Positions 1-13,587 of a stretch of DNA of 64,000 nt are shown piece after piece (position 1 is the stretch's first letter; each line of letters opens with the position of its first letter). The notes beneath the pieces were generated by a model. That model saw only the letters and a program-made list of their open reading frames with translations. It was not told the origin of the DNA and made no database searches. The stretch is from an uncultured Clostridium sp. GTDB taxonomy: Bacteria > Bacillota > Clostridia > TANB77 > CAG-508. Made by a program: the position numbers and the translations under genes. The stretch is taken from NCBI GenBank assembly GCA_902462295.1, contig CABQAZ010000001.1, positions 12,215 to 76,214 on the forward strand, given 5' to 3'.

Positions 1-747
1 TGTAACACTATCAATTTTGCCACGACCTACAGTGTGCCTAATCGTTAATGTTTTAGATTTGAAATCAATAGCATTCCATTTAATACCTATGACTTCTTCA
101 CGCCTTAATCCATATACACCCGCAATTATTACTGGTAATTCAATAGTTGTATTTTTTATAATTTCCATTAAATTTAATAACTCATCTTGTGTATAATAAT
201 CAGCTGTATATTCTTTAGTTTTAATTGTTTCTAGTTTAGTAGCAGGATTACTATCTATTATTTCTGTAATAACAGCACTTTTTAGAGCTTTACTAATATT
301 TGCTCTATAATGTTTTACTGTATTTCCAGATAGACCTTCAGCAAATAGTAAATCAAAAAAGTCTTGAATGTGTTTAGGTTTTAAATCGACTAATTTAATT
401 TTTTTAGCTTTAAAGTATTTATATAATCTACCTTTAATAACTTGCTCATAACCTATATATGTTGTTTGTTCGACTTTTCCTTTTTGCTTTTCTAGCCATT
501 CTAACATATAATCACAAAATAAAATATTTTTATATTTATCATATATGTTTGGATCTCTTAATTTTATTTTAGATTTTTGCTCATATTCAATTTTAAATTG
601 TTCTAGTTTTTCTTCAGCTTTTTTCTTATTTCCTTTTATAGTATAACCAGTTGGAATCCATTTGGGTTTTCTTTTTCCATAGTCATCATATAAATTTAAA
701 ACTGCATAATACAGTCCTTTCTTTTTTTGTAAGCTACCTGTTATCAT
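1..747 (-). CDS. int: Tyrosine site-specific integrase, Tn916-Int-like; N-terminal 249 aa only, C-terminus runs off the window start
   Basis: Not in the ORF track because it is truncated at the window edge. Minus-strand ATG at 747 follows RBS GGAAAGGAGA. Translation reads MITGSLQKKKGLYYAVLNLYDDYGKRKPKW...GVYGLRREEVIGIKWNAIDF. It shows an N-terminal core-binding domain and the first catalytic Arg region of phage-integrase-family recombinases. Confidence 0.75.
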   Translation of the reverse strand, partial: MITGSLQKKKGLYYAVLNLYDDYGKRKPKWIPTGYTIKGNKKKAEEKLEQFKIEYEQKSKIKLRDPNIYDKYKNILFCDYMLEWLEKQKGKVEQTTYIGYEQVIKGRLYKYFKAKKIKLVDLKPKHIQDFFDLLFAEGLSGNTVKHYRANISKALKSAVITEIIDSNPATKLETIKTKEYTADYYTQDELLNLMEIIKNTTIELPVIIAGVYGLRREEVIGIKWNAIDFKSKTLTIRHTVGRGKIDSVT

Positions 748-828
748 TTTTCTCCTTTCCGTTGTAACAGTTTATATTTAACTTATCATTGATATTTTGT
801 TTATTATACCATGATAATCAAAAAAATC

Positions 829-1038
829 CTACTGTTCTGTCATTACATATTTGATAACATTAACTTTAGGAATTTTATATTCTCTGCCAACTTTTTTACT
901 TTTTATTTTCTTTTCTCTTAACATACGATACGCAAGAGAGTTACTAATTCCACCTAGCATTTTTCTCATTTGTGTAAGATTTACAATGTCTGGGTAGTCT
1001 GTAAACATTAAAGTATAAGATTCTTTCATATCAGCCAT
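829..1038 (-). CDS. xis: Excisionase-like small HTH DNA-binding protein (Xis family)
   Basis: 69-aa ORF immediately upstream of int. RBS AAAGGAGGTG lies 6 nt before ATG at 1038. The protein is small, basic and has an HTH, typical of Tn916-type Xis. Confidence 0.5.
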   Translation of the reverse strand: MADMKESYTLMFTDYPDIVNLTQMRKMLGGISNSLAYRMLREKKIKSKKVGREYKIPKVNVIKYVMTEQ

Positions 1039-1096
1039 ATTTAGCACCTCCTTTAAGATTTAAAATAAAAAAAGACCTATTTATCAATAGGACTAA

Positions 1097-1570
1097 TTAA
1101 ATACTATAACAATATCTTTTCTTGTATTTTTGTGTTGGTATTTTAATATTCATATTTATTGATTTAGGAACATCACTACCAACTTTTAATTTTCTATCTA
1201 TAACTAGATTGCCTTTACTATTTCTATGATATGCACTTGAATTCCATTTTCTATAAGCTAAATCACTTATTTCAAAAGAATAAGATAATTCTTTACTTGC
1301 TTCAATATGTTGTTGTTTAACAAATTCATATAATTGTTTATCCGATTCACTTTGTCTTTTGTTTCTAATCCAGTCTCTTTTTGCAATTTTACGATTTTCT
1401 CTACTTATTTGAGCTCTATATTCTTTTTCCTGAATATATCTTGTATCGTTTTTGATTATCTTTGTTATATAAGATGGATTAACATTCAATTCTTTTGCAA
1501 TATTAGTTGGTTTATCATGTTCATTATAATACTTATCTAGTATATAGTTCTTGTTATCTATATTAATCAC
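1097..1570 (-). CDS. Helix-turn-helix DNA-binding protein, putative element regulator
   Basis: 157-aa ORF with the HTH-like segment PTNIAKELNVNPSYITKIIK. It lies in the same operon orientation as xis and int. The GTG start is uncertain. Confidence 0.4.
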   Translation of the reverse strand: MINIDNKNYILDKYYNEHDKPTNIAKELNVNPSYITKIIKNDTRYIQEKEYRAQISRENRKIAKRDWIRNKRQSESDKQLYEFVKQQHIEASKELSYSFEISDLAYRKWNSSAYHRNSKGNLVIDRKLKVGSDVPKSINMNIKIPTQKYKKRYCYSI

Positions 1571-1765
1571 AACCTTTCAAATAATTTGGTAAAATTTGTG
1601 TCTACATATTTTTTATACAAGTATAGAACTTGACATTTTATATTAATTGTTGTAATATATTATTATATTTCAACTATTAATATTTGATATTATTATAAAG
1701 TAATAATTGTAATATGTCAATATATTACAATAAAAATTTTGAAAAATTTTAAGGAGAATAAAGTA

Positions 1766-2677
1766 ATGGAATTTAATTTTAAAAGTAACAGTGCATATTC
1801 ATATATGAGATATGGTGGATATCAAGGAAAATATAAAGGAAAAGAATACTATATGGTTCCCAACCCAGAGGCTAGTATAAATATTAGGGATTTATATGAT
1901 ATGTTCAGTAAAATAGATTCAATATTGGTGGATTTATTAAATATAGGAAGAATATGTATAGATTCAGAAGATGATCAGACTAAGTTTACTTGTGCATATT
2001 TCTTTGTAGAGCAATATGGTTTACTAGGTTTTATGGTTGAAGCACCAATTAATGCAGATTTTCTATTAAATGAAGAGGTAACATTAAAAGAAAATAATTT
2101 TATTAATAAAAATTGTGTAATGAGAACAAAAGAATATTTTGATTTGTTTTTCCCATTCACAAAAGATAATGAAATGAATTATACAGTAACAAAGGGTAAA
2201 GTGAAGCTAGAAACAAATTCTGATTTGCAAAGAATGCTAAATCGTACATCTCTTAACAATCAATTAATTTATTCTAGTTTCTATTGTGAAAAAATAGATT
2301 GGATAATTGAATATGCAAAAAAAATGTATAAAACATTCAAAAAATATGTAGATTTAGCAAATAATAGTATAAATGATTATGATGAATATAGAGCAAGAGA
2401 AACTATAAATGATTATTACTTTTCTGGAATACCATATAAAATAAACATGTATGGAAATACACCAGAAATCTCTTGGCAACCTAATTGTTTAAAACAAGCA
2501 ATAGATATGGCTTTTGGATTTATGCTTTGCAGTGAAAAAAATCCTTTAAAAATTTGCAAACATTGTGGTAAAGTATTTTATGCCAAAAACCCTAAAGCTG
2601 AATATGATAGTAGTCAATGTAGAAACCAAGCAAATGTATATAAAAGTAGAAACAAAAATAAAGATGATAAAAAATAA
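1766..2677 (+). CDS. Hypothetical protein with a C-terminal CxxC...C zinc-ribbon and a basic tail
   Basis: Long ORF. RBS AAGGAGAA precedes ATG at 1766. C-terminal sequence CKHCGKVFYAKNPKAEYDSSQCRNQ. No family recognised. Confidence 0.5.
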   Translation: MEFNFKSNSAYSYMRYGGYQGKYKGKEYYMVPNPEASINIRDLYDMFSKIDSILVDLLNIGRICIDSEDDQTKFTCAYFFVEQYGLLGFMVEAPINADFLLNEEVTLKENNFINKNCVMRTKEYFDLFFPFTKDNEMNYTVTKGKVKLETNSDLQRMLNRTSLNNQLIYSSFYCEKIDWIIEYAKKMYKTFKKYVDLANNSINDYDEYRARETINDYYFSGIPYKINMYGNTPEISWQPNCLKQAIDMAFGFMLCSEKNPLKICKHCGKVFYAKNPKAEYDSSQCRNQANVYKSRNKNKDDKK

Positions 2678-2777
2678 TTGTTGAAATTGTATAAAAAACA
2701 TTGTTTTTGCATTAAAAATAAAGTATAATGAGGCTATCCTTTTCCAAAGGAAATCTTTGAGAAAGGAGGTGAACATC

Positions 2778-2867
2778 TTGAGTTCATTCGATTTAATTTG
2801 GCGATTAATTGTTTTATTATTACTTAGTAATAATAAAGATGATGAAAACCAAAATTCTCAAGATTAG
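2778..2867 (+). CDS. Small Fst/Ldr-like type I toxin candidate (29 aa, TTG start)
   Basis: Strong RBS GAAAGGAGGTGA lies 7 nt before TTG. Upstream there is a TTGTTT-17-TATAAT promoter. The peptide (M)SSFDLIWRLIVLLLLSNNKDDENQNSQD has a hydrophobic helix followed by an acidic tail. Two hairpins follow it (2882..2912 and 2923..2945). Confidence 0.35.
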   Translation: MSSFDLIWRLIVLLLLSNNKDDENQNSQD

Positions 2868-2881
2868 TACAAACTAATCAA

Positions 2882-2912
2882 AGGCAGTCTGGTCAACTGC
2901 CTTTATTTTTTG
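2882..2912 (+). terminator. Rho-independent terminator hairpin plus T-run
   Basis: aaaggcagtctggtcaactgccttt followed by atttttt. Confidence 0.6.
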
Positions 2913-3249
2913 GCAAAAAAATGAGATATGTGGTCAACATATCTCTGTGAACATTCGAGTTCTTCGATTTATTCTCTTGCTTAAGCTAAATATAGTATAC
3001 TATATTTTTTATTATATGTCAAATGTTTTTTGAATATTCATTTTTTTTAATTTACTTTTATAATTTATTAAAATAATTTCTATTCGCAATATATCATAAA
3101 ATAAGTAAAAATACTAGCATTTTACATAAAAATGTGATAAAATAGTAATCAAGTGCTAGTAAATACTAGTTTTAAATTTTTATACTCCTGTTTTACAGGT
3201 TGATATATAGGCAGTTAATACAAAATAAATATTTTAAGGAGGAAGCTTT

Positions 3250-3909
3250 ATGGAAGAAAAATTAAAAAATTCAATGAGATTTTATATGTTAGCCACACAG
3301 CTTAAATATAAGATAAGAAGTGGCTGGGATAAATCACATTGGAATGTGAGTAAAGATCGGGTAGAAAGCATTGCGGAACATGTTTATGGGACTTGCATTT
3401 TAGCTTTAAGTATTGATTCTGAATTTAAAACAAATTTAGACATCAATAAAGTTATAAAAATGCTGGTTCTTCATGAATTGGGAGAAGTTATTATTGGTGA
3501 TATTACACCATTTGACAACATAACTCCTGAAGAAAAAATGAAAAAAGAACATGAAGCAATGAGAGAAGTTATTGGCGACTTGGTTAATCAGGAGGAGTTT
3601 CTTTCATTACTATTTGAATTTGATGAAAAGAAGACCAAAGAAGCAGTTTTTGCTCATCATTGTGATAAATTGGAAGCAGATATACAAGCTAAAGTTTATC
3701 AAGATATGGGATGTCAGCATCAGTTAGATGAGCAAGAAGATAATGTGGTTTTCAAGAGCAATAAAGTTCAACAGATGGTAAAAGATGGGGCTCAAACTGC
3801 ATTTGATATTTGGTATGAATGGGATAAATCATTGTACTATGATGACGAAGATTTTGCCAGACTTCTTGATTATGTGAGAACAATCAATACTCAAGAACTT
3901 TTAAAGTAA
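3250..3909 (+). CDS. HD-domain phosphohydrolase, YfbR-like 5'-deoxynucleotidase family
   Basis: Motifs SIAEHVYGTC and LVLHELGEVIIGDITP (H...HD...D) are characteristic of YfbR/HDDC2-type HD nucleotidases. Confidence 0.7.
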   Translation: MEEKLKNSMRFYMLATQLKYKIRSGWDKSHWNVSKDRVESIAEHVYGTCILALSIDSEFKTNLDINKVIKMLVLHELGEVIIGDITPFDNITPEEKMKKEHEAMREVIGDLVNQEEFLSLLFEFDEKKTKEAVFAHHCDKLEADIQAKVYQDMGCQHQLDEQEDNVVFKSNKVQQMVKDGAQTAFDIWYEWDKSLYYDDEDFARLLDYVRTINTQELLK

Positions 3910-3942
3910 CTCGTAAACTAATTAGTTAAGGAGGTATACACA

Positions 3943-4404
3943 ATGGAAATGAAAACTTTAAATTTGGACTCGGTAAAGGAAATTCGGGATTTAGCCAGAA
4001 GAAAGGACAGAGATTTTTTTAACTTTGTTGATGAACTTGAAAAGATTTTAAAAACTCAAAAGCCTGGAGAATGGTTTAAAAGACCGATAGATGTATGTGA
4101 TGTAACTTTAGATGAAGTATGGGAACAAAAGTTAGGTACTATTAAGTATCGTAAAACAATACATACATTTTCATGTATGTATGTTCCTAACCAGGGAGTT
4201 GCAATAAGAGAACATGGGCATAATCAGCTTGTGCATACAGATCACAATGGAGATATAAAGAAAACAAGAGAATTATATATTTTCTATGTACCGTCTTCAT
4301 TAGTAGAAATGAAATTCTGTAGTAAGGATGAAACTCATCAATTATGCAACAATTATGGTTGTCCAGTATATGTTATATCTGCAAAGGTAACAGGTAGAGG
4401 TTAA
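3943..4404 (+). CDS. Hypothetical protein, co-operonic with the HD nucleotidase
   Basis: 153-aa ORF 33 nt downstream of the HD gene. RBS AAGGAGG. No recognised motif. Confidence 0.5.
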   Translation: MEMKTLNLDSVKEIRDLARRKDRDFFNFVDELEKILKTQKPGEWFKRPIDVCDVTLDEVWEQKLGTIKYRKTIHTFSCMYVPNQGVAIREHGHNQLVHTDHNGDIKKTRELYIFYVPSSLVEMKFCSKDETHQLCNNYGCPVYVISAKVTGRG

Positions 4405-4464
4405 AGTTTTATCATTTGCATTATAAGTAATAAGAGGGTTAGTTTAGGCTAATTCTCTTATTCC

Positions 4465-5712
4465 TTATATTTCTAAATTCCATTCTTTTTCTCTTTCTTC
4501 GTGTTTAAGTTGTTTTTCTGGATTAATAAAAGTGTGAGTTTCATCTTCGAATTTTTTTACTAATTCTTTTGATTCTCCAATACCAAATTTGTGACAAATC
4601 CAAACTATAAATTTATCAACTGTTTCATAAAATTTATCAATAATTTCGTGTAAATGGTTATTTTCTTTTTCCAATGACCTAATTTTATTTTTGTATTTAT
4701 ATTCAATATCAAATTCTTTATTTTTAAATTCATCCTCTAAATCTCTTTTTCTATTATTAAATTCCATATCAAGAGAATTATTCTTTTTCTTATATTCATG
4801 TTCTAAATGTTCTACAGTATTGTGTAATTCTTTATTATCAGCAAGTATTTTATCTCTTTCCTTTTGGTATTTTTCAGCCTCATTAATAACTTTAGACTGT
4901 TTAGATAATTCCTTATGCAATGAAAGATTATCTTTGTATAATTCTTTAATTAACTCATCTTTAGGTTTTATAATTTCTTCTAGTATTTTTTCATCTCTTT
5001 TTAATGAAAATTTACTAATATCGGTTATCTCAGGAACATCTGGTAATTCTAATTTTATTTCATTCAAAACCTTTTTAGTATTTTCATAATTAGTAATTTG
5101 TTTATATTCTTCAACAGTATAATGTTTTCTGTGAGTATCTTCTACAAACATACCTCTTTCTAAATCAAAGCCTTTTGATTTTACATGATTAAAGTAGGCA
5201 TCTTGTAATTTTCTGTAACTATCTCGACCTTTCCAAAAATCTCTTGCACAAATTTTATCAACATTGTTACCTTCTTTATCTTTTGTGTGAACAACAGGAA
5301 CAAGCATTAAGTGCATATGTGGTGCTCCTTCATCTAAATGCACAACTGCTGATATTATATTTTTTTCTCCTAGACTTTTATAATTGCAGATAAATTTATA
5401 ACATTCATCAAAATATCGTTTTGTTTTTTTTTCTCCAATTTTGTCAAAAAATACTTGGTCAGAAGTAAACATCATTTGACACATTATTATACTGTTACTA
5501 CGAAGATGTCCTTGTACATTATTTTCTTTTAAATACTTATCAAATTCTTTTGTATATGTTAGCTCATTTTTCTTAATGTAATAATTCAAATGTGTTTTTG
5601 TTGGATCAATATCTTTATTAGTATGATTTTTTGCTTTTCTATCATTGTGAGTTCCTTTTCCGTTTATTTCTGCTCGTGTTAATTTTTCATTTCTTACGAT
5701 AGCGTAACTCAT
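4465..5712 (-). CDS. mob: MobV-family (Mob_Pre / MobM-like) relaxase
   Basis: MSYAIVRNEKLTRAEINGKGTHNDRK...HLDEGAPHMHLMLVPV matches the N-terminal relaxase motifs of pMV158 MobM-type proteins. The C-terminus is a coiled-coil. The probable start is the internal ATG at 5712 (RBS GAAGGAGGTG) rather than the track start at 5772. Confidence 0.8.
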   Translation of the reverse strand: MSYAIVRNEKLTRAEINGKGTHNDRKAKNHTNKDIDPTKTHLNYYIKKNELTYTKEFDKYLKENNVQGHLRSNSIIMCQMMFTSDQVFFDKIGEKKTKRYFDECYKFICNYKSLGEKNIISAVVHLDEGAPHMHLMLVPVVHTKDKEGNNVDKICARDFWKGRDSYRKLQDAYFNHVKSKGFDLERGMFVEDTHRKHYTVEEYKQITNYENTKKVLNEIKLELPDVPEITDISKFSLKRDEKILEEIIKPKDELIKELYKDNLSLHKELSKQSKVINEAEKYQKERDKILADNKELHNTVEHLEHEYKKKNNSLDMEFNNRKRDLEDEFKNKEFDIEYKYKNKIRSLEKENNHLHEIIDKFYETVDKFIVWICHKFGIGESKELVKKFEDETHTFINPEKQLKHEEREKEWNLEI

Positions 5713-5754
5713 ATCTCCATGCACCTCCTTCTTCGCTTGAGATATTGTTTCAAT

Positions 5755-5792
5755 GTCTAACACACTAGACAAACAAAGTTTGTCTGTGTGGC
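5755..5792 (-). promoter_or_regulatory. Candidate oriT: inverted repeats with a GTGTG/TT nick-like motif
   Basis: Lies immediately upstream of mob. The minus strand reads gacaaacTTTgtttgtc then gtctaGTGTGttagac. TAGTGTGTTA resembles the pMV158 MobM nick region (TAGTGTG/TTA) within a hairpin loop. Confidence 0.5.
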
Positions 5793-6342
5793 AGGGTTAC
5801 TTAACCCCACACCCCAAAACCCAAAATTGCCTACCTGCATTTTTAGGTTTTTTCATAAAAATTTGCTTGTCGCAATTTTTATGAATGTGAGCAAAAAAAT
5901 AAATTTTTTACTCACAACAAAAAAGCACTTATGCTTTTTTGGATTCACTTTAGCAACTACAAAGCAGAAACCAGAGGGAGAGAGCTAAAGTGAATTAGGT
6001 GTAATAATCCCATTCATGAAAAATAGAATTATTACACCTATATAAGTTGAAACCGTCGGTCGTTCGCCTCGTTTCATAGGTAGTCTAGTAAGTAGCTTTT
6101 GCCACTATAATTGCTGATACAGTTAAGTATCTTTGTTCATACTTGCCCAAACTTTTTACAATTACAAATCCATTTCAAGTTTTGCCACCGAATACTCTTT
6201 TATTATTGTGAGTCTGTGTTCCAAAATCTCACTCACGCACTTTGTATAATTAGACTGCTTATACAAATACGAATGAACTTTATAGCATCGGCTCATCACA
6301 CCAAACACTTTTTAAGAGGTGTTGCATTTCTCTTTTGCACGA

Positions 6343-6385
6343 CAAAAAAGCCCGTTTGTAGATTTTTATTCTACAAACGGACTTT
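6343..6385 (-). terminator. Rho-independent terminator after the TIR gene
   Basis: Minus strand reads ccgtttgtagaataaaaatctacaaacgg followed by gcttttttg. Confidence 0.6.
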
Positions 6386-6435
6386 ATCGTAATCTTATAT
6401 TTTTTATTTTTTTACAATTCACTTAAAATTAATTT

Positions 6436-6846
6436 TTATATTGAATAATTACGGATTGCTTCTACAATAGAATCAGTATTCCAATTAACTATTGTATCAG
6501 CAACATTTGATAGTTCTTGTGGCATTCTTTCTGCACATCTAGGTCTAATTGCTATAATAGGCTTGTTATAATATTGTGCAATTTCAATCTCTTTTTGAAT
6601 CCACTTTCTATAATCTACATACATACCAGCCAATACAATAACTACATTTACAGGTTTTATTTGTCTGTATAGAGCTTCTTCTAATTGAGTATTAGTTTTA
6701 GTATTTAAAGCATCATGTTCTGGAACACTATAATTTCTAAAATAGAAATTAGGATATTCTTGTAATTTTTCAACTAGAGAATAATATTCACTATTGTAGT
6801 CCCAAGAATGGCTAATAAATAAATCATAAGTTTTTAAACTTGGCAT
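6436..6846 (-). CDS. ThsB-like TIR-like domain protein (DUF1863 family)
   Basis: Start MPSLK at 6846 follows RBS AGGAGG. YDLFISHSWDY...NVVIVLAGMYVDYRKWIQKEIEIAQYYNKPIIAIRP matches the FxSxxxxD ... vLxG...s.W...EI......KPII pattern of Thoeris ThsB / DUF1863 TIR-like proteins. Confidence 0.55.
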   Translation of the reverse strand: MPSLKTYDLFISHSWDYNSEYYSLVEKLQEYPNFYFRNYSVPEHDALNTKTNTQLEEALYRQIKPVNVVIVLAGMYVDYRKWIQKEIEIAQYYNKPIIAIRPRCAERMPQELSNVADTIVNWNTDSIVEAIRNYSI

Positions 6847-6866
6847 AATTAATCCTCCTTTCATTG

Positions 6867-7352
6867 TCATTTAATAGTTATAATAATTTGAACTTTACTA
6901 ACTAAAAAATATATTATAATTGAAATATAAGAAATTATAAAAATAAATGGTAAAAACATTTCCAATTTACTTACTGGTATATATTTTTTATTAAATTTTG
7001 TTTTAGTCAGAATGTTCCATTCCATTTTGTATAAGTTAATTGGCAAATATTTTTCTACTTCTTGTATGATATGAAATTTACAACTGTTAATTTGTTTATA
7101 ATTTTTTAAGTTTAAGAACCACAAAGTAGAAAAAATAATACCTAAAAGTGCTAAAAGCAATAATAAAGATGTATTAGAAAAAAATATAGTCATTATTGTT
7201 ATTAATGCTGAATTTAATGTTATAAAAAATGTATTTACATTTATTCTTCTATCACTTATTTTATCAGCAGATTCTATATAAGTTTTATATTGTTCTAATA
7301 AATTATTTTTATCTGTATCATTTGTGAGATTGTTTTTGTTAATTAATTTCAT
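6867..7352 (-). CDS. Small multi-pass membrane protein, operon partner of the TIR-like protein
   Basis: 161 aa. N-terminal roughly 45-aa soluble segment, then two TM helices (TFFITLNSALITIMTIFF and LLLLLALLGIIFSTLWFL), a roughly 50-aa loop and a C-terminal TM. Its stop lies 18 nt upstream of the TIR start. RBS GGAGG. Confidence 0.55.
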   Translation of the reverse strand: MKLINKNNLTNDTDKNNLLEQYKTYIESADKISDRRINVNTFFITLNSALITIMTIFFSNTSLLLLLALLGIIFSTLWFLNLKNYKQINSCKFHIIQEVEKYLPINLYKMEWNILTKTKFNKKYIPVSKLEMFLPFIFIISYISIIIYFLVSKVQIIITIK

Positions 7353-7643
7353 ATGTATTTAATCCTCCACACAAAGATTATACCACAAAATGACAGAAAT
7401 TCAAGAAAATTAACAAAATTTGTAAGTTACAAAATGTCAATGATAAGTTATACTGTTATTCTATCAAAAGTTCTAACATAGTTCTAACACTTAATTCAAA
7501 ATTTTAGAAAAGGACTTTTTGGATTGTTATTGCATATTTAACAATACTTGTGCTATAATCTCCTACAGAGAAGCTAAATAGGCCAATTATCAAAAGAGAT
7601 TAATTGATGTTATCTAATGTTAAAAAACAGATGGCGTAAAATT

Positions 7644-7699
7644 CTTAAAATCCTGCGGTTGAATAAACCGTGCCGGTTCGATTCCGGCCATCTGCACCA
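7644..7699 (+). other. 3' fragment of class-II tRNA-Leu(TAA): anticodon loop through CCA only; putative att site repeat
   Basis: cttaaaaTCCTG cggttgaataaaccg t GCCGGttcgattCCGGC catctgc a CCA. This matches tRNA-Leu from the anticodon loop (TAA), through the long variable arm and T-arm, to the acceptor 3' strand. No D-arm, 5' acceptor strand or anticodon 5' stem lies upstream. Confidence 0.6.
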
Positions 7700-8215
7700 T
7701 AGCATATCTGTTCGAACAAATAGAACAGAGAGATACAAAAATTAATCAGAAACTAGAATTTGAGAAATGTCTAAAACAAAGGCTAGAGTTTATATGTGAG
7801 TTTTCAAAAGTTAATCTAACTTTTATCAATGGTAGCATTAGAAAATTAGAAAAAACTAATCTTACATATATAGAGCCACATAGAATAATTATTAAGAATA
7901 TTACTTTTTAGTATTTAATTATTCTAAAGAAATTACTCACTTAATCAAACTACAAAAAAAGCAGGAGTTAAAAATTTTGATAGATTTCATAATAGTGGAT
8001 ATAAGGGACTATATAATGGAGAAACCGCTGATGACGTTGCAAAAAGAAAAGGCTTAAGATATAGAAAAGATATTTTGGATAATATGGGAAGTGATGAACT
8101 TATTGCAAATTTATTTAGAACTTCCCAAATAGATAAAAATTTTTTTGATTTTACTAGATTAATTATACTTAATATGGTAGAATATGATTATAAATAAATA
8201 AAAGGAAAACAGAAT

Positions 8216-9316
8216 ATGATAAAAGATATAATTAAATATGGAGAAGCAGAAATAACTTATAGAAACAAGAAACTATTGTCGGAAAAGCCTAAATTAAAAA
8301 ATTTGTTTTGGGAAACGACACTTAGATGTAATGCTAACTGTAAACATTGTGGAAGTCGAGCTGGTGAAAATTTAAAATTAGAAGATGAATTAACTACTGA
8401 AGAAATTAAGAAAATTCTACAAGATATAGCTAATAAGTATGATTCAAGAGAAATACTGATAAATGTTACAGGAGGGGAGCCATTATTAAGACAAGATTTG
8501 TTTAGAGTAATGGAATTTGCTAATAAATTAGGATATTATTGGGGAATGACTACAAATGGAATTTTAATAAATGATGAAATAATTGAAAAAATGAAACAAA
8601 CTGGAATGAGTACAATTTCAATAAGTTTGGATGGATTAGAAAAATCTCACGATGAATTTAGACAAGTAAAAGGTTCATACAAAAAAATAATTGAAAATGT
8701 AAAGAAGCTAAATAAAGCTAATTTTTTAAATTATTTGCAAATAACAACTGTTGTAAATAAATCAAATATAAATGAATTAGAACAACTTTATAATGAAATA
8801 TTAGCATTACAAATAGATTCATGGAGAATCTTGAATATGGAGCCAATTGGTAGAACAGCTGATAATCAAGATTTGCTACTTAATGGTAACGAATATAAAA
8901 CTTTGCTAAACTTTATAAAAGAAAAACGAAAAAAATCAAATTTTGATATTACATATGGGTGTTCTCATTTTTTAGGTATGAAATATGAAAAGGAAGTTAG
9001 AAATCATATGTTTTTTTGCATTGCTGGATTTATTACAGCTAGTATATTGTATAATGGGGATATTTATGTTTGCCCTAGTGTTGAACGAAGAAAAGAATTA
9101 ATACAAGGAAATATTCGAACAGATGATTTTGTAGATGTTTGGGAAAATAAATTTAAATGGTTTAGAAGTTTGGACAAATTAAAATGTGAAAAATGTGAGA
9201 ATTGTAATGAGTGGAAATATTGTTTAGGAGGCTCTTTGCATAATTGGGACTTCAATAATAGAACACAAAAATTTTGTTTAAATGAAATTTTAAAAGGAGA
9301 TGTATCAAATGAATAA
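8216..9316 (+). CDS. Radical SAM / SPASM-domain protein (peptide-maturase-like)
   Basis: CNANCKHC (CxxxCxxC) and GGEPLL motifs, plus a C-terminal Cys-rich SPASM-like segment CEKCENCNEWKYCLGG. Confidence 0.75.
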   Translation: MIKDIIKYGEAEITYRNKKLLSEKPKLKNLFWETTLRCNANCKHCGSRAGENLKLEDELTTEEIKKILQDIANKYDSREILINVTGGEPLLRQDLFRVMEFANKLGYYWGMTTNGILINDEIIEKMKQTGMSTISISLDGLEKSHDEFRQVKGSYKKIIENVKKLNKANFLNYLQITTVVNKSNINELEQLYNEILALQIDSWRILNMEPIGRTADNQDLLLNGNEYKTLLNFIKEKRKKSNFDITYGCSHFLGMKYEKEVRNHMFFCIAGFITASILYNGDIYVCPSVERRKELIQGNIRTDDFVDVWENKFKWFRSLDKLKCEKCENCNEWKYCLGGSLHNWDFNNRTQKFCLNEILKGDVSNE

Positions 9317-9608
9317 AATGAAAAAGGTAATATCAAGTATTGGAGCTTTTTTTGTTTGTATGATATCTAAAGTATATGCAATTGAAACGGGTGACATAAT
9401 ATCAATGTATGCAGTAGATCCAGGTCCAAGACGAACTATTCAAACTATTGGAAAAATAACAAATCCATTTGTGTTATTTATTATAGGATTAATTGTAATA
9501 CTTAATAAAAGGATTACTAAAAAAGTAAAAGCGATAGTAGTTTCAATTTTAGCTATATTAGCAATACTTGGCATAGTTTTAAGTAATTATTTATCTACAA
9601 TTATTTAA
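9309..9608 (+). CDS. Small membrane protein (signal or TM anchor plus two TM helices)
   Basis: ATG at 9309 is better spaced from AAAGGAG than the track start at 9300. Hydrophobic segments VISSIGAFFVCMI, FVLFIIGLIVIL and IVVSILAILAILGIVL. It overlaps the rSAM gene end. Confidence 0.45.
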   Translation: MNKMKKVISSIGAFFVCMISKVYAIETGDIISMYAVDPGPRRTIQTIGKITNPFVLFIIGLIVILNKRITKKVKAIVVSILAILAILGIVLSNYLSTII

Positions 9609-10162
9609 AGATAAAAAGGTAGGTATTGTTAAATATAAAGAAATACATTAAATTTAAAATATAATTAAGGAGTGAATATAATATGGATATAGTTCAATAA
9701 AAGAGTTAATAGATAGAAATACAGTTGAAACGTAAATTAAATAAATTTAGTGTAGAAGATAAAACAATATTAGAGGATGTAAGAGATTGCTTGTATTATA
9801 AAGATAATTTAAAAGTTGGACAAGTTACAGTTACACACCTAGCAATAGCAAATATGAAATTATGTACCAAATTTGATAGTGCTCAATATTGAAGATTTTA
9901 AAATTAGGAAATATGGAAGAATAAGATTAAGATATTTAAAAGAAAACAAAAAAAAGCATAATATATGGTAATGCTTATGGAAAACAAACTACAAGAGCAT
10001 TTAATAAAGAGAGATAAAACAGCAAATGAAAGGTTTGAACTGCTAATGAAACAATTTGCAGAAAGAGAGTTGATAGTAGAAGAATGTATTAAGAACTAAA
10101 AATAAAGAATTGGGGATAGGGAAAATTACTTTTATTTTAAGAATTTAGAATTAATTAATTAA

Positions 10163-10190
10163 AGGAGCAGATCTTACTGCTCCTTTGATA
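10163..10190. terminator. Bidirectional hairpin terminator
   Basis: aaaggagcag atcttact gctccttt, downstream of the minus-strand operon. Confidence 0.5.
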
Positions 10191-10214
10191 ATATTTCTAA
10201 AAATATTTAATATG

Positions 10215-10661
10215 CTATTTTTGGAAAAAGTTTTTAATTTTATCAAAAATTCTTTTAAACAGAGGTTTCTTATATTCTATTAAAGCAACTGAATATTCTT
10301 GTTTTTCATCAGTTGAAATACTAACAGTTTTATTTTTAAAAATATTATCATAATTATATTTTTTGTTTCTTAAATCTTCTTCCACAATGTCTTTATATTT
10401 GTCATATCGAACAATTCTTTTCCTTTCTTCAGCTGAAATAAAATATGATATATATATTTCTTTTAAAAGTTCTTTAGTTTCTTCAAGTAATTGTTGATTC
10501 TGTAAGCTAATATTTGGATTAATATTTACTACGTAATTATCATTTTTATTTTCTTTCAAAAAATTGATAAACTTTTTAGAAATTTTATTTTGTTCATTAT
10601 ATGGTAGACACTTAATTATAAAAAGTGTTTCGGCGAAAGCATTATTATATGTTAAGTTCAT
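10215..10661 (-). CDS. Hypothetical protein (148 aa)
   Basis: Overlaps the upstream 536-aa gene by 17 nt, suggesting translational coupling. No family recognised. Confidence 0.5.
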   Translation of the reverse strand: MNLTYNNAFAETLFIIKCLPYNEQNKISKKFINFLKENKNDNYVVNINPNISLQNQQLLEETKELLKEIYISYFISAEERKRIVRYDKYKDIVEEDLRNKKYNYDNIFKNKTVSISTDEKQEYSVALIEYKKPLFKRIFDKIKNFFQK

Positions 10662-12246
10662 TTTCCGTACCTCCCAACTCTTTATTTGTAAGAATACCTT
10701 TTATTTTTTGTAACAAATTACCTTTTGATTTAATTTGAGCGAATGCACCTATATCTGTTGAACTATAAGATCCTTCTATAGCTTGATTTTCAGTATTTAA
10801 TTCTGGATTGAACTTTCTTTTTTCTATCTCATAAGCATCATATATTTGTATTGGAAGTCCTGTAGTGTTGCTATATTCTTCAGCTTGCATTAATAATTCT
10901 TCTGACAATTCTGCAGTATCTTTAACAACCATAATATAAGCAGGTTCTATTTGAGTCCAATCTACTAAAGTTTCATTTGTTCCACCATTTTCAATATGTT
11001 CCAATACCTCTGGAATTGCTGCTGAATTTTTTTCAAAAGAAAATCTATCTAGTGCGTTGTTATATCCTATATTTATTGTTTTTATAGCATTTATAGGAAC
11101 GGCTGAAAAAACTATAGCAATTTTTCTAGCTAAATGTGGGTGTAAAGCACCAATTTTACTAATAGAACATGATAAATTAGTATGAGGTGCTGTAATAACA
11201 TAATTAAAAGAACTATTTGTGTATCTATTTTTTAATGGAATTCTTGAACTTAAATCAAATGGATTTTTTCTTGAATTCATATAATCCGACAGCATATCAC
11301 TTGCTTCTTCTGAATCAAGTTCAGGGTCAAACTTTCTATCATATTTAGACTCTATAAAAGCTTTTATACACTCAACTACAACACTATCAAAAAATTCATC
11401 TTGTGTAATATCACTTTTTTCCCCAAAGTCTGGAATAAAATGTAATAATAATAAGCTTTCATCATTAGGATTATCAATTATTTTCTTGTTAGGGGGGTTA
11501 AGTCTAGATAAAAGTATAGATCTATTTATTTTTTCATAATCAGAATAACATTGTTTTAGCAAAGGTAACATACTATTATTTTTTTGTTTCAGCATTGTAT
11601 GTATTGAATTTAATTGTTGAATAAGTCTATCTAATTGTTGAATTTCGTCTGGTATTTTTGTAAAATCTCTTAAAGATAGTATTCTTTCTTTTAGTAAATC
11701 ATAATTTTCAATATAAGGAATTGAATCTTGTCCAAATGTTTCGTCCAAACTTATTCTTTGTTTTATTTTTTCCAATTCTGTCTTAGGAAGATATATATCT
11801 GTTCTAGCACTAAATATTCCTAATCTAATTTCTTTTGATATTTTATCTTGATTTTTATCTAGTTCTTCCGTTCCATAGCAATTAATCAATTTTGCTACTT
11901 CTAATAATATTATGGTTCTAGCTCTTTCTTCAAAATGATTTAAATTCCCAGTTCTTTGAAATATATTTTCAGATACCATTGGTATATTAACACTTTTTTC
12001 AAATTCTTTATCATGTCTTATTGTGCGCTTTTCTTCAATCATTATCTTATCTTTTAATTCATCAGTACTTAAAACCATTTTTAATAAATAATCTTTGTAT
12101 TTTTGATATATTGACTGTATATCTTCTTTAGTGCCTTTAAATTCAATAATAGTATCTAAATAATCATTATATTCATCTAAACATACTTGCTGAAAATTAT
12201 CTATTTGTATAATATTACCAAAATTATCAAATTCTTTTTCATACAT
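10645..12246 (-). CDS. Hypothetical large protein (about 533 aa), no recognisable motif
   Basis: Long ORF. The likely start MYEKEF at 12246 has GGAGAA 8 nt upstream. No Walker, HD or nuclease motifs seen. Confidence 0.55.
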   Translation of the reverse strand: MYEKEFDNFGNIIQIDNFQQVCLDEYNDYLDTIIEFKGTKEDIQSIYQKYKDYLLKMVLSTDELKDKIMIEEKRTIRHDKEFEKSVNIPMVSENIFQRTGNLNHFEERARTIILLEVAKLINCYGTEELDKNQDKISKEIRLGIFSARTDIYLPKTELEKIKQRISLDETFGQDSIPYIENYDLLKERILSLRDFTKIPDEIQQLDRLIQQLNSIHTMLKQKNNSMLPLLKQCYSDYEKINRSILLSRLNPPNKKIIDNPNDESLLLLHFIPDFGEKSDITQDEFFDSVVVECIKAFIESKYDRKFDPELDSEEASDMLSDYMNSRKNPFDLSSRIPLKNRYTNSSFNYVITAPHTNLSCSISKIGALHPHLARKIAIVFSAVPINAIKTINIGYNNALDRFSFEKNSAAIPEVLEHIENGGTNETLVDWTQIEPAYIMVVKDTAELSEELLMQAEEYSNTTGLPIQIYDAYEIEKRKFNPELNTENQAIEGSYSSTDIGAFAQIKSKGNLLQKIKGILTNKELGGTENELNI

Positions 12247-12267
12247 AGTTATCATTCTCCAAATTTT

Positions 12268-12431
12268 TAAATTTCAATACATTCTTCTAAATTGTTATTC
12301 CACCAATATTTTGAATGAACTTTTGAAATTTGAGTTCCTGCTACTAATCTTTTTTCTAATAATGTATTTATTATTTTATTAGCTATTTCTTCCTTATTAC
12401 AAAGTGTTGTTACAATTATATATTTATTCAT
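12268..12431 (-). pseudogene. cutA: CutA1-like (divalent-cation tolerance / PII-like) N-terminal half, truncated
   Basis: Sub-threshold 54-aa ORF MNKYIIVTTLCNKEEIANKIINTLLEKRLVAGTQISKVHSKYWWNNNLEECIEI. It aligns with the first half of CutA ([51 protein letters not shown]) and stops where the conserved C-terminal half should begin. Confidence 0.45.
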
Positions 12432-12432
12432 A

Positions 12433-12861
12433 TTATTTTTCACTCCTTAATTTAGATATTAGGATTTCAGCATTTTTATAAGTTGTAGAATTTTCTCCAT
12501 ATCTATTTTTAATGTCATCAAGTCTTTTGTCATAGCCGACATCATTACCATATTTATCAATTTGCATATCTGCTTTATTTAATATTTCTAAAAATAATGA
12601 TTTATATTCTGTATTTATGTCTCCGTGATAATAAATCTCTTTCCAATATTTATAATTGTTTCTATTTAATATTTCTCCACCTATATGTCCATGATTAGAA
12701 TTATCTCCATATTCATAACCAATATCGTGATTAAACCCTAATAAAAACAAATCTTGTAATTCATTATCATTCAAGTTGTATTCTTTTCCTATTTCAATTA
12801 TTTTTTTTGCAACAGCTAACGAATGTCTTAATCTATCATTATCTATCATTTTAAACTCCAT
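12433..12861 (-). CDS. HD-domain protein (small HD phosphohydrolase)
   Basis: LRHSLAVAKK...GFNHDIGYEY...NHGHIGGEIL carries the H...HD signature. Confidence 0.6.
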   Translation of the reverse strand: MEFKMIDNDRLRHSLAVAKKIIEIGKEYNLNDNELQDLFLLGFNHDIGYEYGDNSNHGHIGGEILNRNNYKYWKEIYYHGDINTEYKSLFLEILNKADMQIDKYGNDVGYDKRLDDIKNRYGENSTTYKNAEILISKLRSEK

Positions 12862-13137
12862 AATTATATTTATTTTAAAAATTTATCTAAAGTAAATTCT
12901 TTGTTATATTCATCAACTATTACATAGTTAGATTCGTTTTTTTTCATTATAATGGATTATTTCACACCTCATAAAAAATTTTATAAAATTTTAGAAAACT
13001 AGTTAACTTTTATAAAAATATATTATGTATGCGATATATAGTTTTTATGACTTATCTATAATAGTTATATAATTTTTTAGAAATATTGTCAATAGATGGT
13101 AACTTTTAAAAATATACAAACGAAAGGAGGATTGATT

Positions 13138-13347
13138 ATGAATACACCTAAATTCAAAGAAAAGTCTATGCCAATAATTTATACAACTAAAGATAAAATG
13201 TTTTATATTAGTAGAGTTAAATGTTTAGAGCTATTTCACAGAGCTGATTTTCTAGCACAGAAGTATGTCAGAGATTTTGGAATTGAAGCAAAGGCTTGTA
13301 TAAAGTCTTTTAAAAGGATTTGTTCACGGAGATATTATAAGTGCTAA
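13138..13347 (+). CDS. Small hypothetical protein
   Basis: RBS AAAGGAGG lies 7 nt before ATG at 13138. Confidence 0.35.
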   Translation: MNTPKFKEKSMPIIYTTKDKMFYISRVKCLELFHRADFLAQKYVRDFGIEAKACIKSFKRICSRRYYKC

Positions 13348-13587
13348 TGTAATGCTAGATAAAAATAATAAAATATATTTTATAAATTAGCCAATGCAAT
13401 GTGCATACTTCAAACAGAATATATAATAAAAACTGATGGAGATTCAAAAGAAAATCAATACTGGCTAAATGAAAGCATAAAAGGATATTATTGTAGTGGT
13501 AATATAAGTAATATTATAAATAAAATAGATTAGGTTATAGGTATAAAGGAATTATAAAAAATGAAATAATAATGAGATTAAAAATAA

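What the first reader, a model, noticed from the sequence alone, without database searches (positions are those of the whole stretch)
1..7699. Integrative mobilizable element bounded by a 3' tRNA-Leu(TAA) fragment
The block reads, in order: a Tn916-type integrase (truncated by the window edge), an Xis-like gene, an HTH regulator, an Fst-like toxin candidate, an HD nucleotidase pair, a MobV relaxase with an adjacent oriT-like hairpin, and the TM plus TIR operon.

It ends at 7644..7699 with a sequence that matches a class-II tRNA-Leu only from the anticodon loop (TAA) through the variable arm, T-arm and CCA. No 5' half lies upstream. This is the classic duplicated att core left by integration into a tRNA 3' end. 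The integrase points away from the window, so the intact tRNA-Leu and attL should lie roughly 0.5 kb left of position 1.

The element has no replication or conjugation genes, so it would rely on a helper conjugative element for transfer.
Basis: partly seen in the sequence, partly recalled or inferred. Interest (0 to 1): 0.6.

Follow-up and report, generated by a model that had tools for sequence, protein, structure and literature searches.

The report
Mobilizable island in tRNA-Leu gene
This is an ordinary 8.3-kb mobile island that inserts into a leucine tRNA gene, replaces the gene's 3' half with its own copy, and carries a relaxase so that another element's conjugation machinery can move it; it belongs to a family found in dozens of uncultured gut Clostridia.

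Summary
The observation and the main interpretation hold. Window 7644..7700 is a 57-nt stretch identical to positions 33-88 (+1 nt) of a tRNA-Leu(TAA) gene and is not a complete tRNA. A human-gut metagenome contig that is 100% identical to window 1..16846 extends 3.5 kb further left. It carries the intact tRNA-Leu at window-equivalent -702..-615, about 140 nt beyond the integrase stop, with the same 57 nt. The repeat period is 8314 bp.

Among 45 related integrase copies with readable flanks, 37 have this tRNA or its 3' fragment in the same place. In eight loci the distal fragment keeps a different, host-type variable arm, and in the six of these that also hold the integrase-proximal tRNA, that tRNA has the element-type arm. 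The proximal tRNA is therefore a host/element chimera, and the crossover lies in the anticodon loop and stem (CTTAAAATCCTGCG).

The element also has conserved arm repeats and a MobV relaxase with a pMV158-like oriT, and no recognisable replication or conjugation gene. Thirty-eight contigs join the intact tRNA directly to the flank sequence that follows the distal repeat.

Corrections: "Tn916-type" is too specific, only one of the "HD pair" is an HD protein, and a 303-aa backbone gene was missed. It is a new member of a known kind.

The parts
1..747 (-). Tyrosine integrase, N-terminal 249 of 406 aa (the rest lies left of the window)
   Evidence: Pfam Phage_int_SAM_5/SAM_3 and Phage_integrase hits. 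The full 406-aa protein in L014 1312..2532 scores Phage_integrase E 2e-23 and has R215, H335-x-x-R338, H361 and Y370.
829..1038 (-). Xis-like excisionase candidate, 69 aa
   Evidence: HTH_17 at 25.1 bits and TIGR01764 excisionase at 26.3 bits, both just under cut-off. It sits immediately upstream of int. The exact protein is listed in 4727 blocks of the assembly collection.
1097..1570 (-). 157-aa backbone protein, possible HTH regulator, first gene of the p157-xis-int operon
   Evidence: Only weak MarR/MntR-type HTH hits. Present in 50 related loci.
1692..1720 (-). Consensus sigma-70-like promoter facing the p157-xis-int operon
   Evidence: TTGACA-17-TATAAT, 12 of 12. This is a consensus match only.
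1766..2677 (+). 303-aa conserved backbone protein with a C-terminal Cys-cluster; function unknown, probably a nucleic-acid-binding regulator
2778..2867 (+). 29-aa hydrophobic/acidic peptide ORF (MSSFDLIWRLIVLLLLSNNKDDENQNSQD), type I toxin candidate
   Evidence: Strong RBS. Terminator at 2880..2904. Peptide conserved in 28 related loci. No Pfam hit.
2915..3022 (-). Candidate antitoxin RNA unit: promoter 3022..2994, transcript about 2987..2915, terminator 2945..2923
   Evidence: Promoter TTGACA-17-TATACT (11 of 12) and a terminator on the - strand. The transcript crosses a direct repeat (2950..2972) of the toxin start region (2771..2795). Predicted duplex is -35.2 kcal/mol against -23.1 +/- 3.7 in shuffles; 2 of 500 shuffles reach it. 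No Rfam hit.
3250..3909 (+). HD_3 / YfbR-like phosphohydrolase, cargo slot 1
   Evidence: Pfam HD_3 E 1.6e-32. Present in only 7 related loci.
3943..4404 (+). 153-aa protein of unknown function, cargo slot 1
   Evidence: No family hit. Present in 2 related loci.
4465..5712 (-). MobV (MOBV1-type) relaxase, 415 aa
   Evidence: Mob_Pre E 5e-43. NCBIfam MobV 143 bits, cut-off 100. His22 and HLDEGAPHMH at 125..134.
5761..5790 (-). oriT candidate: CACACAGACAAAC-TTT-GTTTGTCTAGTGTG; predicted nick between 5761 and 5760 (G/T)
   Evidence: Inverted repeat found, sequence. Same layout and AGTGTG/TT nick context as the pMV158 oriT (PMC5863519). The 36-mer is identical in 13 of 15 related loci, although the surrounding DNA is only 85-90% identical.
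6436..6846 (-). ThsB-type TIR protein, 136 aa, cargo slot 2
   Evidence: Pfam ThsB_TIR E 3.5e-17. PADLOC ThsB E 1.5e-13. PDB relative 1eiw.
6867..7352 (-). 8xMP-family membrane protein, 161 aa; candidate effector partner of the TIR protein
   Evidence: Pfam PF24838 E 1.1e-38. The 8xMP-TIR gene pair recurs in other elements of this family and, at 50% identity, beside a restriction-modification system in an unrelated chromosome.
7469..7489 (+). Two tandem AGTTCTAACA repeats, candidate arm-type integrase sites of the right arm
   Evidence: Within the 8.8 kb inspected, the 10-mer (up to 1 mismatch) occurs only four times: two here and two in the left arm at window-equivalent -554 and -542. The positions (175/164 nt before the repeat; 60/72 nt after CCA) are conserved across the related loci.
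7627..7636 (+). Relic of a tRNA 5' end (ACAGATGGCG) at the element's right tip
   Evidence: Resembles GCAGATGTGGCG of the tRNA and pairs with the 3' acceptor strand. Conserved in most right ends but replaced in some variants.
7644..7700 (+). attR: displaced 3' part of tRNA-Leu(TAA) (positions 33-88 plus 1 nt), the distal copy of the 57-nt direct repeat
   Evidence: 100% identical to the intact tRNA at L014 1115..1171, period 8314 bp. Not a complete tRNA.

Best explanation
Window 1..7700, together with about 615 nt to its left, is an 8.3-kb integrative mobilizable element (IME) inserted in a tRNA-Leu(TAA) gene.

Integration. The element carries its own copy of tRNA positions 33-88. Its 406-aa tyrosine integrase recombines this copy with the chromosomal gene, with strand exchange inside CTTAAAATCCTGCG (anticodon loop plus the 3' strand of the anticodon stem). 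The working tRNA next to the integrase (attL) is then host 5' part plus element 3' part, followed by an element-supplied hairpin and T-run. The displaced host 3' part remains as attR at 7644..7700. Paired AGTTCTAACA repeats in both arms are the likely arm-type integrase sites.

Excision. The small Xis-like protein, encoded in one operon with the 157-aa protein and int, would direct excision.

Transfer. The excised circle would be nicked by the MobV relaxase at the pMV158-like oriT (G/T at 5761|5760). It would then be exported through the mating pore of a helper conjugative element, because the element encodes no coupling protein or type IV secretion genes.

Maintenance and cargo. A small toxin ORF with a convergent RNA probably stabilises the element. 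Two variable slots carry cargo: HD_3 plus an unknown protein, and an 8xMP plus TIR pair that is a candidate anti-phage system.

Shown here: the repeats, the intact tRNA, the chimeric nature of attL in relatives, the conservation of the arm repeats and oriT, the gene families, and IME-free junctions in other genomes. Inferred: actual excision, the nick position, mobilisation by a helper, toxin-antitoxin function and defence function.
For: - An intact tRNA-Leu with the same 57 nt lies left of the window in a contig 100% identical to it.
- Nine of ten loci carrying the exact Xis protein have the tRNA about 140 nt after int.
- Of 45 related integrase copies with readable downstream DNA, 33 have the full tRNA and 4 have the fragment (tandem arrays) 131-158 nt past int. 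They come from MAGs of uncultured gut Clostridia; about 45 genome loci carry integrases 84-99% identical to this one.
- Nineteen further loci hold both ends; their 20 repeat periods span 5.5-11.3 kb, and 19 of them are 6.8-11.3 kb.
- In L007, L023, L024, L029, L030, L033, L040 and L046 the attR copy has a different variable arm with compensatory changes. In the six of these loci that also contain attL, the attL tRNA has the element-type arm, and its D-loop varies with the host.
- Arm repeats sit at fixed positions in both arms across the family, and are absent where the integrase is only 55-60% identical.
- MobV passes the NCBIfam cut-off and has His22 and the HxDE..PHxH motif.
- The oriT 36-mer is invariant in 13 of 15 loci and mirrors the pMV158 IR3/nick site.
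- Thirty-eight metagenome contigs join an intact tRNA-Leu directly to the flank sequence found after attR.
- No family hit to Rep, primase, coupling protein or T4SS appears among the ten element genes. The 303-aa unknown has no Rep-like fold.
Against: - No empty site was found in the same species as the window. The 38 IME-free junctions come from related genomes (flank identity 75-90%).
- No circular form or attP junction was observed. The 8313-nt Logan contig that runs from repeat to repeat is what an assembly-graph break at a repeat would give anyway.
- The Xis assignment rests on sub-threshold hits.
- Two backbone proteins (157 aa and 303 aa) have unknown function, so a non-canonical replication or transfer role cannot be excluded.
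- No helper conjugative element was seen among ten of the twelve longest ORFs (380 aa or more) of window 20000..64000.
- Eight related integrase copies have no tRNA-Leu downstream, so other sites or rearrangements exist.
Confidence: 0.9

Rival explanations
1. The block is a fixed, no-longer-mobile remnant of an integrative element: a genomic island with fossil repeats.
For: No circular form and no same-species empty site was found. The DNA immediately to the right is clearly decayed mobile DNA.
Against: The integrase is full length with all catalytic residues. The 57-nt repeats are perfect. Xis, MobV, oriT and the arm repeats are all intact and match the family consensus. Near-identical backbones (92-97%) sit in many different species and flanks, which implies recent transfer.
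Confidence: 0.08
2. The mobile unit is larger than 1..7700. It would be a composite island running from tRNA-Leu to the polC gene at about 15.3 kb, of which the IME is only the left module.
For: Window 7741..7908 is a truncated copy of an 89-93-aa gene that elsewhere precedes a large serine recombinase with MobV, or RepA_N with a relaxase. Genes at 8216..15087 are poorly conserved, of unknown function or defence-like. A related strain (L079) differs there. Tandem arrays at this tRNA are common.
Against: No further copy of the tRNA 3' end occurs anywhere in the window. No recombinase gene lies in 7701..15290. The related IMEs end at the same right-end sequence whatever follows.
Confidence: 0.07
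3. The block is a prophage remnant or a phage satellite that uses the tRNA site, not a conjugatively mobilised element.
For: tRNA-targeting tyrosine integrases with Xis are typical of temperate phages. The integrase's best PHROG hit is the phage integrase family, and the TIR protein matches a PHROG.
Against: There are no capsid, terminase, portal, primase or repressor-type hits. A bona fide MobV relaxase with a conserved oriT is present. The 6.8-11.3 kb sizes and gene sets across the family never include virion genes.
Confidence: 0.02

Closest known systems
NBU1 of Bacteroides (and MTnPi4 of Prevotella): mobilizable elements with a tyrosine integrase that insert in the 3' end of a tRNA-Leu gene (listed in the IME review PMC5704250)
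   Same: Small integrated element. A tyrosine integrase gives site-specific insertion into a tRNA-Leu gene, leaving a direct repeat of the tRNA 3' part. The element has its own relaxase and oriT but no mating pore, so a helper transfers it.
   Different: The host phylum differs (Bacteroidota against uncultured Clostridia). The backbones were not compared here, and nothing suggests common descent. Here the repeat is long (57 nt, from the anticodon loop to the 3' end) and the relaxase is MOBV1-type.
IMESag-rpsI of Streptococcus agalactiae and the MOBV1 IMEs of Faecalibacterium (PMC5704250, PMC5090054, PMC12084326)
   Same: Firmicute IMEs that combine a tyrosine integrase with a MobV relaxase. 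They are about 9 kb, often carry a toxin-antitoxin module and adaptive or defence cargo, and are often found in tandem arrays.
   Different: The integration target differs (3' end of rpsI and other genes, against the tRNA-Leu anticodon loop). No Rep_Trans gene is present here. The backbone genes p157 and p303 have no described counterparts.
pMV158 MobM relaxase and its oriT (PMC5863519)
   Same: MobV family membership holds at the curated cut-off. The N-terminal His22 and the HxDE..PHxH motif are present. The oriT is a hairpin whose 3' arm ends in AGTGTG, followed by TT, immediately upstream of the mob gene.
   Different: The stem sequences differ (AGACAAAC/GTTTGTCT against ACTTTAT/ATAAAGT). 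Here the relaxase sits on an integrated element rather than a rolling-circle plasmid. Nicking was not tested.
Tn916 / Tn1549 Int-Xis modules
   Same: The xis-int pair lies at one end of the element and is transcribed outward. The integrase has an extra N-terminal region and paired arm repeats. Tn1549 Int is among the nearest solved structures.
   Different: There is no hit to the Tn916 integrase N-terminal DNA-binding family or to Tn916-Xis. Integration is strictly site-specific into a tRNA gene with a long identity segment, not into AT-rich sites with heterologous coupling sequences. No conjugation module is present.
par (Fst / RNA II) type I toxin-antitoxin of pAD1
   Same: A short peptide with a hydrophobic N-terminus and an acidic tail. 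A convergent small RNA has its own promoter and terminator. A direct repeat makes that RNA complementary to the toxin's ribosome-binding and start region.
   Different: No Pfam or Rfam match to Fst or its RNAs. The two transcripts have separate terminators rather than one shared terminator. Function is untested.
Thoeris anti-phage systems (TIR ThsB plus an effector; new types in bioRxiv 10.64898/2025.12.03.692087)
   Same: A two-gene operon pairing a ThsB-type TIR protein with a small multi-pass membrane protein. It sits on mobile DNA or beside restriction-modification genes.
   Different: The partner is an 8xMP-family protein (PF24838). It is not SIR2/SLOG, Macro-TM, DUF2270 or SLATT. The family is not named in that paper's text or supplements, and no defence phenotype is known.

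Membership tests
Integrative mobilizable element (IME) | Own site-specific recombinase and delimiting att repeats | tested here: met
   406-aa tyrosine integrase with catalytic R, H-x-x-R, H and Y. Perfect 57-nt direct repeats 8314 bp apart.
Integrative mobilizable element (IME) | Own relaxase and/or oriT | tested here: met
   MobV at 143 bits, cut-off 100. Conserved pMV158-like oriT upstream of mob.
Integrative mobilizable element (IME) | No complete mating-pore (T4SS / VirB4 / coupling protein) module | tested here: met
   None of the ten genes hits such families in Pfam, NCBIfam, PHROGs or PADLOC. Two proteins remain of unknown function.
Integrative mobilizable element (IME) | Excision and helper-dependent transfer demonstrated | not testable with these tools
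   Only indirect evidence is available. Near-identical backbones occur at the same tRNA in many species, and IME-free junctions occur in related genomes.
tRNA-gene-targeting tyrosine-integrase elements, anticodon-loop sublocation (classification recalled from Williams 2002, own knowledge) | The repeat equals the tRNA from the anticodon loop to the 3' end, and an intact tRNA is regenerated at one junction | tested here: met
   The repeat is tRNA positions 33-88. ARAGORN calls the attL copy as tRNA-Leu(taa) and does not call the attR copy.
tRNA-gene-targeting tyrosine-integrase elements, anticodon-loop sublocation | Crossover within the anticodon stem-loop | tested here: met
   Host-type variable arms survive only in attR and element-type arms only in attL, in six locus pairs. 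Sequence 5' of position 33 differs between attL and attR. This confines the exchange to CTTAAAATCCTGCG. It is a comparative inference, not a biochemical mapping.
Tn916-type integrase / excisionase | Tn916 Int N-terminal DNA-binding domain and Tn916-type Xis family | tested here: not met
   A Pfam scan of the full integrase up to E = 10 lists only Phage_integrase and the SAM-like/central domains. Xis hits HTH_17 only.
Tn916-type integrase / excisionase | Low target specificity with heterologous coupling sequences | tested here: not met
   37 of 45 related copies sit at the same tRNA-Leu position with a long identical repeat.
MOBV relaxases | Family profile above the curated cut-off, plus the catalytic His and HxDE..PHxH motif | tested here: met
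   The role of His22 is taken from the pMV158 MobM literature (PMC5863519 and own knowledge).
Fst/par type I toxin-antitoxin | Sequence membership in the Fst toxin family or the par RNA families | tested here: not met
   No Pfam hit for the 29-aa peptide. No Rfam hit in 2650..3250.
Fst/par type I toxin-antitoxin | Architecture: a small hydrophobic peptide plus a convergent RNA complementary to the toxin start region through direct repeats | tested here: met
   ORF, promoters and terminators. Duplex at -35.2 kcal/mol against -23.1 +/- 3.7. Peptide conserved in 28 loci. Expression and toxicity are untested.
Thoeris | ThsB-type TIR protein | tested here: met
   Pfam ThsB_TIR at 63 bits, cut-off 21. 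PADLOC ThsB E 1.5e-13.
Thoeris | A described effector (ThsA SIR2/SLOG, Macro-TM, caspase-like, DUF2270, SLATT and others) | tested here: not met
   The partner hits only PF24838 (8xMP), plus a weak CBASS 4TM effector model at E 5e-4.

The most novel reading that the evidence does not exclude
The 8xMP plus ThsB-TIR pair in cargo slot 2 may be an uncharacterised Thoeris-type signalling defence system with a new membrane effector. If so, this tRNA-Leu IME family would be a main vehicle that shuttles such cassettes, and other abortive-infection-like cargo, among dozens of uncultured low-GC gut Clostridia. As a side effect the element overwrites the 3' half of the hosts' tRNA-Leu(TAA).
Probability: 0.35. 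Interest if true: 0.5.

Novelty: new member of a known kind. Interest (0 to 1): 0.33.

Why it matters
The element class itself is textbook, so the main value is a clean, fully delimited example.

The family is very common in human and animal gut metagenomes. The exact Xis protein is listed in 4727 blocks of the assembly collection, and close integrase relatives occur in dozens of species-level genomes of uncultured Clostridia.

The natural variants map the crossover to 14 nt without any experiment. They also show directly that the element rewrites the 3' half of a host tRNA.

The family has a fixed backbone and two cargo slots filled with different candidate defence genes. That makes it a useful marker for horizontal transfer, and a source of candidate defence systems, in bacteria that cannot yet be cultured.

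Tried and rejected
- Exact-protein look-up of the TIR protein with the long start (144 aa) found nothing. The 136-aa start worked.
- Look-up of the radical SAM protein just right of the element returned only the same contig, so it gave no empty site.
- Look-up of the 213-aa protein next to polC found a related strain (L079). Its contig breaks at an IS21 copy before reaching the tRNA.
- The first metagenome scan for a same-species empty site returned nothing. I later counted the fixed run of N as about 37 where 33 were needed, so that scan was uninformative.
- The second scan, with variable gaps, found 38 IME-free junctions, but none from the window's own species.
- The window's left flank matches none of the 63 genome loci, so the host species' reference genome was not recovered.
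- I considered whether the D-arm-less tRNA-like fold at 7626..7696 is a functional mini-tRNA. It is sub-threshold, and its 5' strand is not conserved in all right-end variants. I treat it as a relic.
- Literature and PDB searches for 8xMP / PF24838 found nothing usable. A viral-contig scan for close 8xMP relatives was empty.
- The Logan contig that spans exactly repeat to repeat (L012) is not counted as evidence for a circle.

Full report
**1. What is in the sequence**

The window has 26% G+C. ORF listing and family searches give the gene order below for 1..7700.

| Feature | Window coordinates (strand) | Basis |
|---|---|---|
| Tyrosine integrase, cut by the window edge (first 249 codons) | 747..1 (-) | SAM-like and catalytic domain hits |
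| Xis-like protein, 69 aa | 1038..829 (-) | HTH_17 25.1 bits; excisionase TIGR01764 26.3 bits; both just under cut-off |
| 157-aa protein | 1570..1097 (-) | only weak HTH hints |
| 29-aa ORF | 2778..2867 (+) | strong RBS, hydrophobic/acidic peptide |
| HD_3 phosphohydrolase | 3250..3909 (+) | E 1.6e-32 |
| 153-aa unknown | 3943..4404 (+) | no family hit |
| MobV relaxase | 5712..4465 (-) | NCBIfam MobV 143 bits, cut-off 100 |
| ThsB-type TIR protein | 6846..6436 (-) | Pfam ThsB_TIR, PADLOC ThsB |
| 8xMP-family membrane protein | 7352..6867 (-) | PF24838, E 1e-38 |

At 7644..7700 lies a 57-nt stretch that reads as tRNA-Leu(TAA) from the anticodon loop to CCA. ARAGORN does not call a tRNA there, and Rfam reports nothing at gathering score. 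A permissive scan gives a 22.9-bit tRNA-like alignment with the whole D arm missing.

**2. The prediction about what lies left of the window**

An exact-protein look-up of the TIR protein returned a 362-kb human-gut metagenome contig, ENA ERZ918890 (loci L011 and L014).

- It is 100% identical to window 1..16846 and continues 3565 nt further left.
- ARAGORN finds an intact tRNA-Leu(taa) there, at window-equivalent -702..-615, on the same strand as the fragment (sequence).
- The integrase is complete in that contig. It has 406 aa with R215, H335-x-x-R338, H361 and Y370, and ends about 140 nt from the tRNA.
- The longest identical stretch between the two ends is exactly the 57 nt of 7644..7700, and the period is 8314 bp.

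**3. Family evidence**

- The exact Xis protein is listed in 4727 blocks of the assembly collection. Nine of the ten places shown carry tRNA-Leu(taa) about 140 nt past int.
- A scan of one genome per species found 63 loci. All but one (a sediment MAG labelled Deltaproteobacteria, 50% identity) come from uncultured Clostridia and relatives, mostly gut MAGs. About 45 of them carry integrases 84-99% identical to this one.
- Of 50 integrase copies with at least 80% identity over the C-terminus, 45 have readable downstream DNA.
  - 33 of these have the full tRNA and 4 have the 3' fragment (tandem arrays), at 131-158 nt past int.
  - 8 have neither.
- Nineteen further loci hold both ends. Their 20 repeat periods span 5.5-11.3 kb, and 19 of them are 6.8-11.3 kb.
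- The backbone int-xis-p157-p303-toxin ORF (window 1..3046-3071; to 3945 in L003) is 92-97% identical between loci, and the MobV-oriT block is 85-90% identical. Two regions vary: between about 3070 and MobV, and between the region upstream of MobV and oriT and the right end.

**4. Where the crossover is, and what happens to the tRNA**

- In L007, L023, L024, L029, L030, L033, L040 and L046 the distal (attR) copy has a variable arm different from the usual one. Examples are GCGGTGGTTAAACACCGTG and GCGAGGGTTAAACCTCGTG, against GCGGTTGAATAAACCGTG. The changes are compensatory.
- In the six of these loci that also contain attL, the intact integrase-proximal tRNA has the usual arm. The D-loop of the proximal tRNA varies with the host: AACTGGC, AACTGGT or AATTGGT.
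- The same alternative arms occur in intact tRNAs of IME-free sites.
- The proximal tRNA is therefore a chimera of the host 5' part and the element's 3' part, and attR is the displaced host 3' part.
- Sequence 5' of position 33 also differs between attL and attR. Strand exchange is thus confined to CTTAAAATCCTGCG, the anticodon loop plus the 3' strand of its stem. This is a comparative inference, not a biochemical mapping.
- Directly after CCA the element supplies a hairpin followed by a T-run, AACCTCAAG...CTTGAGGTTTT.

**5. Arm sites**

- The 10-mer AGTTCTAACA (up to 1 mismatch) occurs four times in the 8.8 kb inspected. Two copies are at window 7469 and 7480. Two are in the left arm at -554 and -542. 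All have the same orientation.
- The positions are conserved across the family: 60 and 72 nt after CCA, and 175 and 164 nt before the repeat. The repeats are absent in loci whose integrase is only 55-60% identical.
- I read them as arm-type integrase sites. This is an inference.

**6. Transfer functions**

- MobV has His22 and HLDEGAPHMH.
- Immediately upstream, on the mob strand, lies CACACAGACAAAC-TTT-GTTTGTCTAGTGTG/TTAGAC.
- The pMV158 oriT is CACACACTTTAT-GAAT-ATAAAGTATAGTGTG/TTATAC, with the nick at G/T at the 3' end of the long inverted repeat (PMC5863519).
- The 36-mer is identical in 13 of 15 related loci and differs by one base in the other two.
- The predicted nick lies between window 5761 and 5760 on the - strand. 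It has not been tested.
- No element gene hits Rep, primase, coupling-protein or T4SS families.
- Ten of the twelve longest ORFs (380 aa or more) listed for window 20000..64000 include no conjugation gene.
- 'No replication or conjugation genes' stands, with the caveat that two proteins are of unknown function.

**7. Sites without the element**

A metagenome scan asked for an intact tRNA-Leu (5' part required) followed within 5-6 nt by TATCTGTTCGAAC. That motif follows attR in the window and in L001, L008, L033, L040 and L043; L039 has TTTCTGTTCGAAC at the same place. The scan found 38 contigs.

- In these contigs the tRNA and the flank are contiguous. The IME is therefore an insertion between them.
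- None is from the window's own species: flank identity is 75-90%.
- The flank is itself mobile DNA. It encodes an 89-93-aa protein followed by a large serine recombinase with MobV (L109), or by RepA_N with a relaxase (L107).
- Window 7741..7908 is a truncated copy of that small gene: 56 codons, 80-88% identity.
- Other attR copies are followed by left ends of related or different elements (TTAGAAC..., TAAGAGC..., TGGGAGAG...). L043 and L034 hold clear tandem arrays.
- This tRNA is thus an integration hot spot, as described for Firmicute IMEs in general (PMC12084326).

**8. Other modules**

*Toxin-antitoxin candidate.*
- The 29-aa ORF (MSSFDLIWRLIVLLLLSNNKDDENQNSQD) has a strong RBS and its own terminator.
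- On the opposite strand there is a near-consensus promoter (3022..2994) and a terminator (2945..2923).
- That transcript crosses a direct repeat of the toxin's start region, so it is complementary to it.
- The predicted duplex is -35.2 kcal/mol, against -23.1 +/- 3.7 for shuffles; 2 of 500 shuffles reach it.
- The peptide is conserved in 28 loci.
- The layout is that of the par/Fst system as I recall it, but there is no Pfam or Rfam membership.

*TIR plus 8xMP pair.*
- The pair is absent from all the IME loci gathered.
- It recurs in the same slot of other members of the family. One 8xMP variant, 89% identical, is listed in 174 blocks.
- At 50% identity the pair lies beside a DNA methylase and a restriction-enzyme-like gene in an unrelated chromosome.
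- It is a candidate Thoeris-like system with an undescribed effector.

**9. Comparison with known elements, and verdict**

- The element works like, and qualifies as, an integrative mobilizable element. Close functional analogues are NBU1 and MTnPi4, which combine a tyrosine integrase with the 3' end of tRNA-Leu. Others are the MobV IMEs of streptococci, Faecalibacterium and clostridia (PMC5704250, PMC12084326).
- It is not a Tn916-type element. The defining N-terminal domain and Xis family are not hit, target choice is strictly site-specific, and Tn1549 Int is only a distant solved relative.
- I found no description of this particular family in the searched literature.
- The finding is confirmed and ordinary in kind. 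It is a well-delimited new member of a known class, with some added value from the naturally mapped crossover and the defence-like cargo.

Noticed in passing
window 7741..7908 (+): Truncated remnant (56 codons, 80-88% identity) of an 89-93-aa gene. In other genomes this gene lies directly after tRNA-Leu and is followed by a large serine recombinase with MobV, or by RepA_N with a relaxase. A second, decayed mobile element therefore abuts the IME.
   Followed up: partly
L034, L043, L003, L021, L024, L046, L048 (related loci): Tandem arrays at the same tRNA-Leu. Up to three repeat copies occur, and at least three different kinds of left end follow the repeat (TTAGAAC..., TAAGAGC..., TGGGAGAG...). 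Several element families appear to share this att site.
   Followed up: partly
window 7627..7636 (+): The element's right tip, (A/G)CAGATGGCG, resembles the tRNA 5' end GCAGATGTGGCG and can pair with the 3' acceptor strand, giving a D-arm-less tRNA-like fold (22.9 bits). It is probably a relic of a once-complete captured tRNA gene. Some right-end variants lack it.
   Followed up: partly
window 8216..9608 (+): A radical SAM/SPASM protein (366 aa) with PADLOC viperin-like hits (E 4e-27), overlapping a 102-aa membrane protein. Exactly this protein is carried by only four contigs.
   Followed up: no
window 10215..12861 (-): An operon of 148-aa, 536-aa and 142-aa proteins with no family assignment, apart from a weak TIR-TM hint for the 148-aa protein. 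It is shared with a related strain (L079), where IS21 genes replace the radical SAM region.
   Followed up: no
window 49838..51448 (+): A large serine recombinase (Resolvase + Recombinase + Zn_ribbon_recom), which suggests another mobile element further along the window.
   Followed up: no
window 38080..38232 (-) and 36196..38037 (-): A glmS ribozyme (90 bits) directly upstream of the GlmS gene. This is an ordinary arrangement.
   Followed up: no
L120 5001..5925; L122-L126 6001..6918: The 8xMP-then-TIR gene pair is a conserved cassette. It occupies the same slot in other members of this IME family, and at 50% identity sits next to a DNA methylase and a restriction-enzyme-like gene in an unrelated chromosome.
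   Followed up: partly
L012 (Logan contig, 8313 nt, same sample as the identical contig): The contig begins and ends inside the 57-nt repeat and spans exactly one element. This is what an assembly-graph break at a repeat would give, so it is not evidence for a circular form.
   Followed up: yes
L005, L030, L044, L047, L049, L056, L076, L077: Eight close integrase copies have no tRNA-Leu within 420 nt downstream. In L005 only xis-int is shared, and it sits beside a different relaxase module. These may be secondary sites, nested elements or rearrangements.
   Followed up: no
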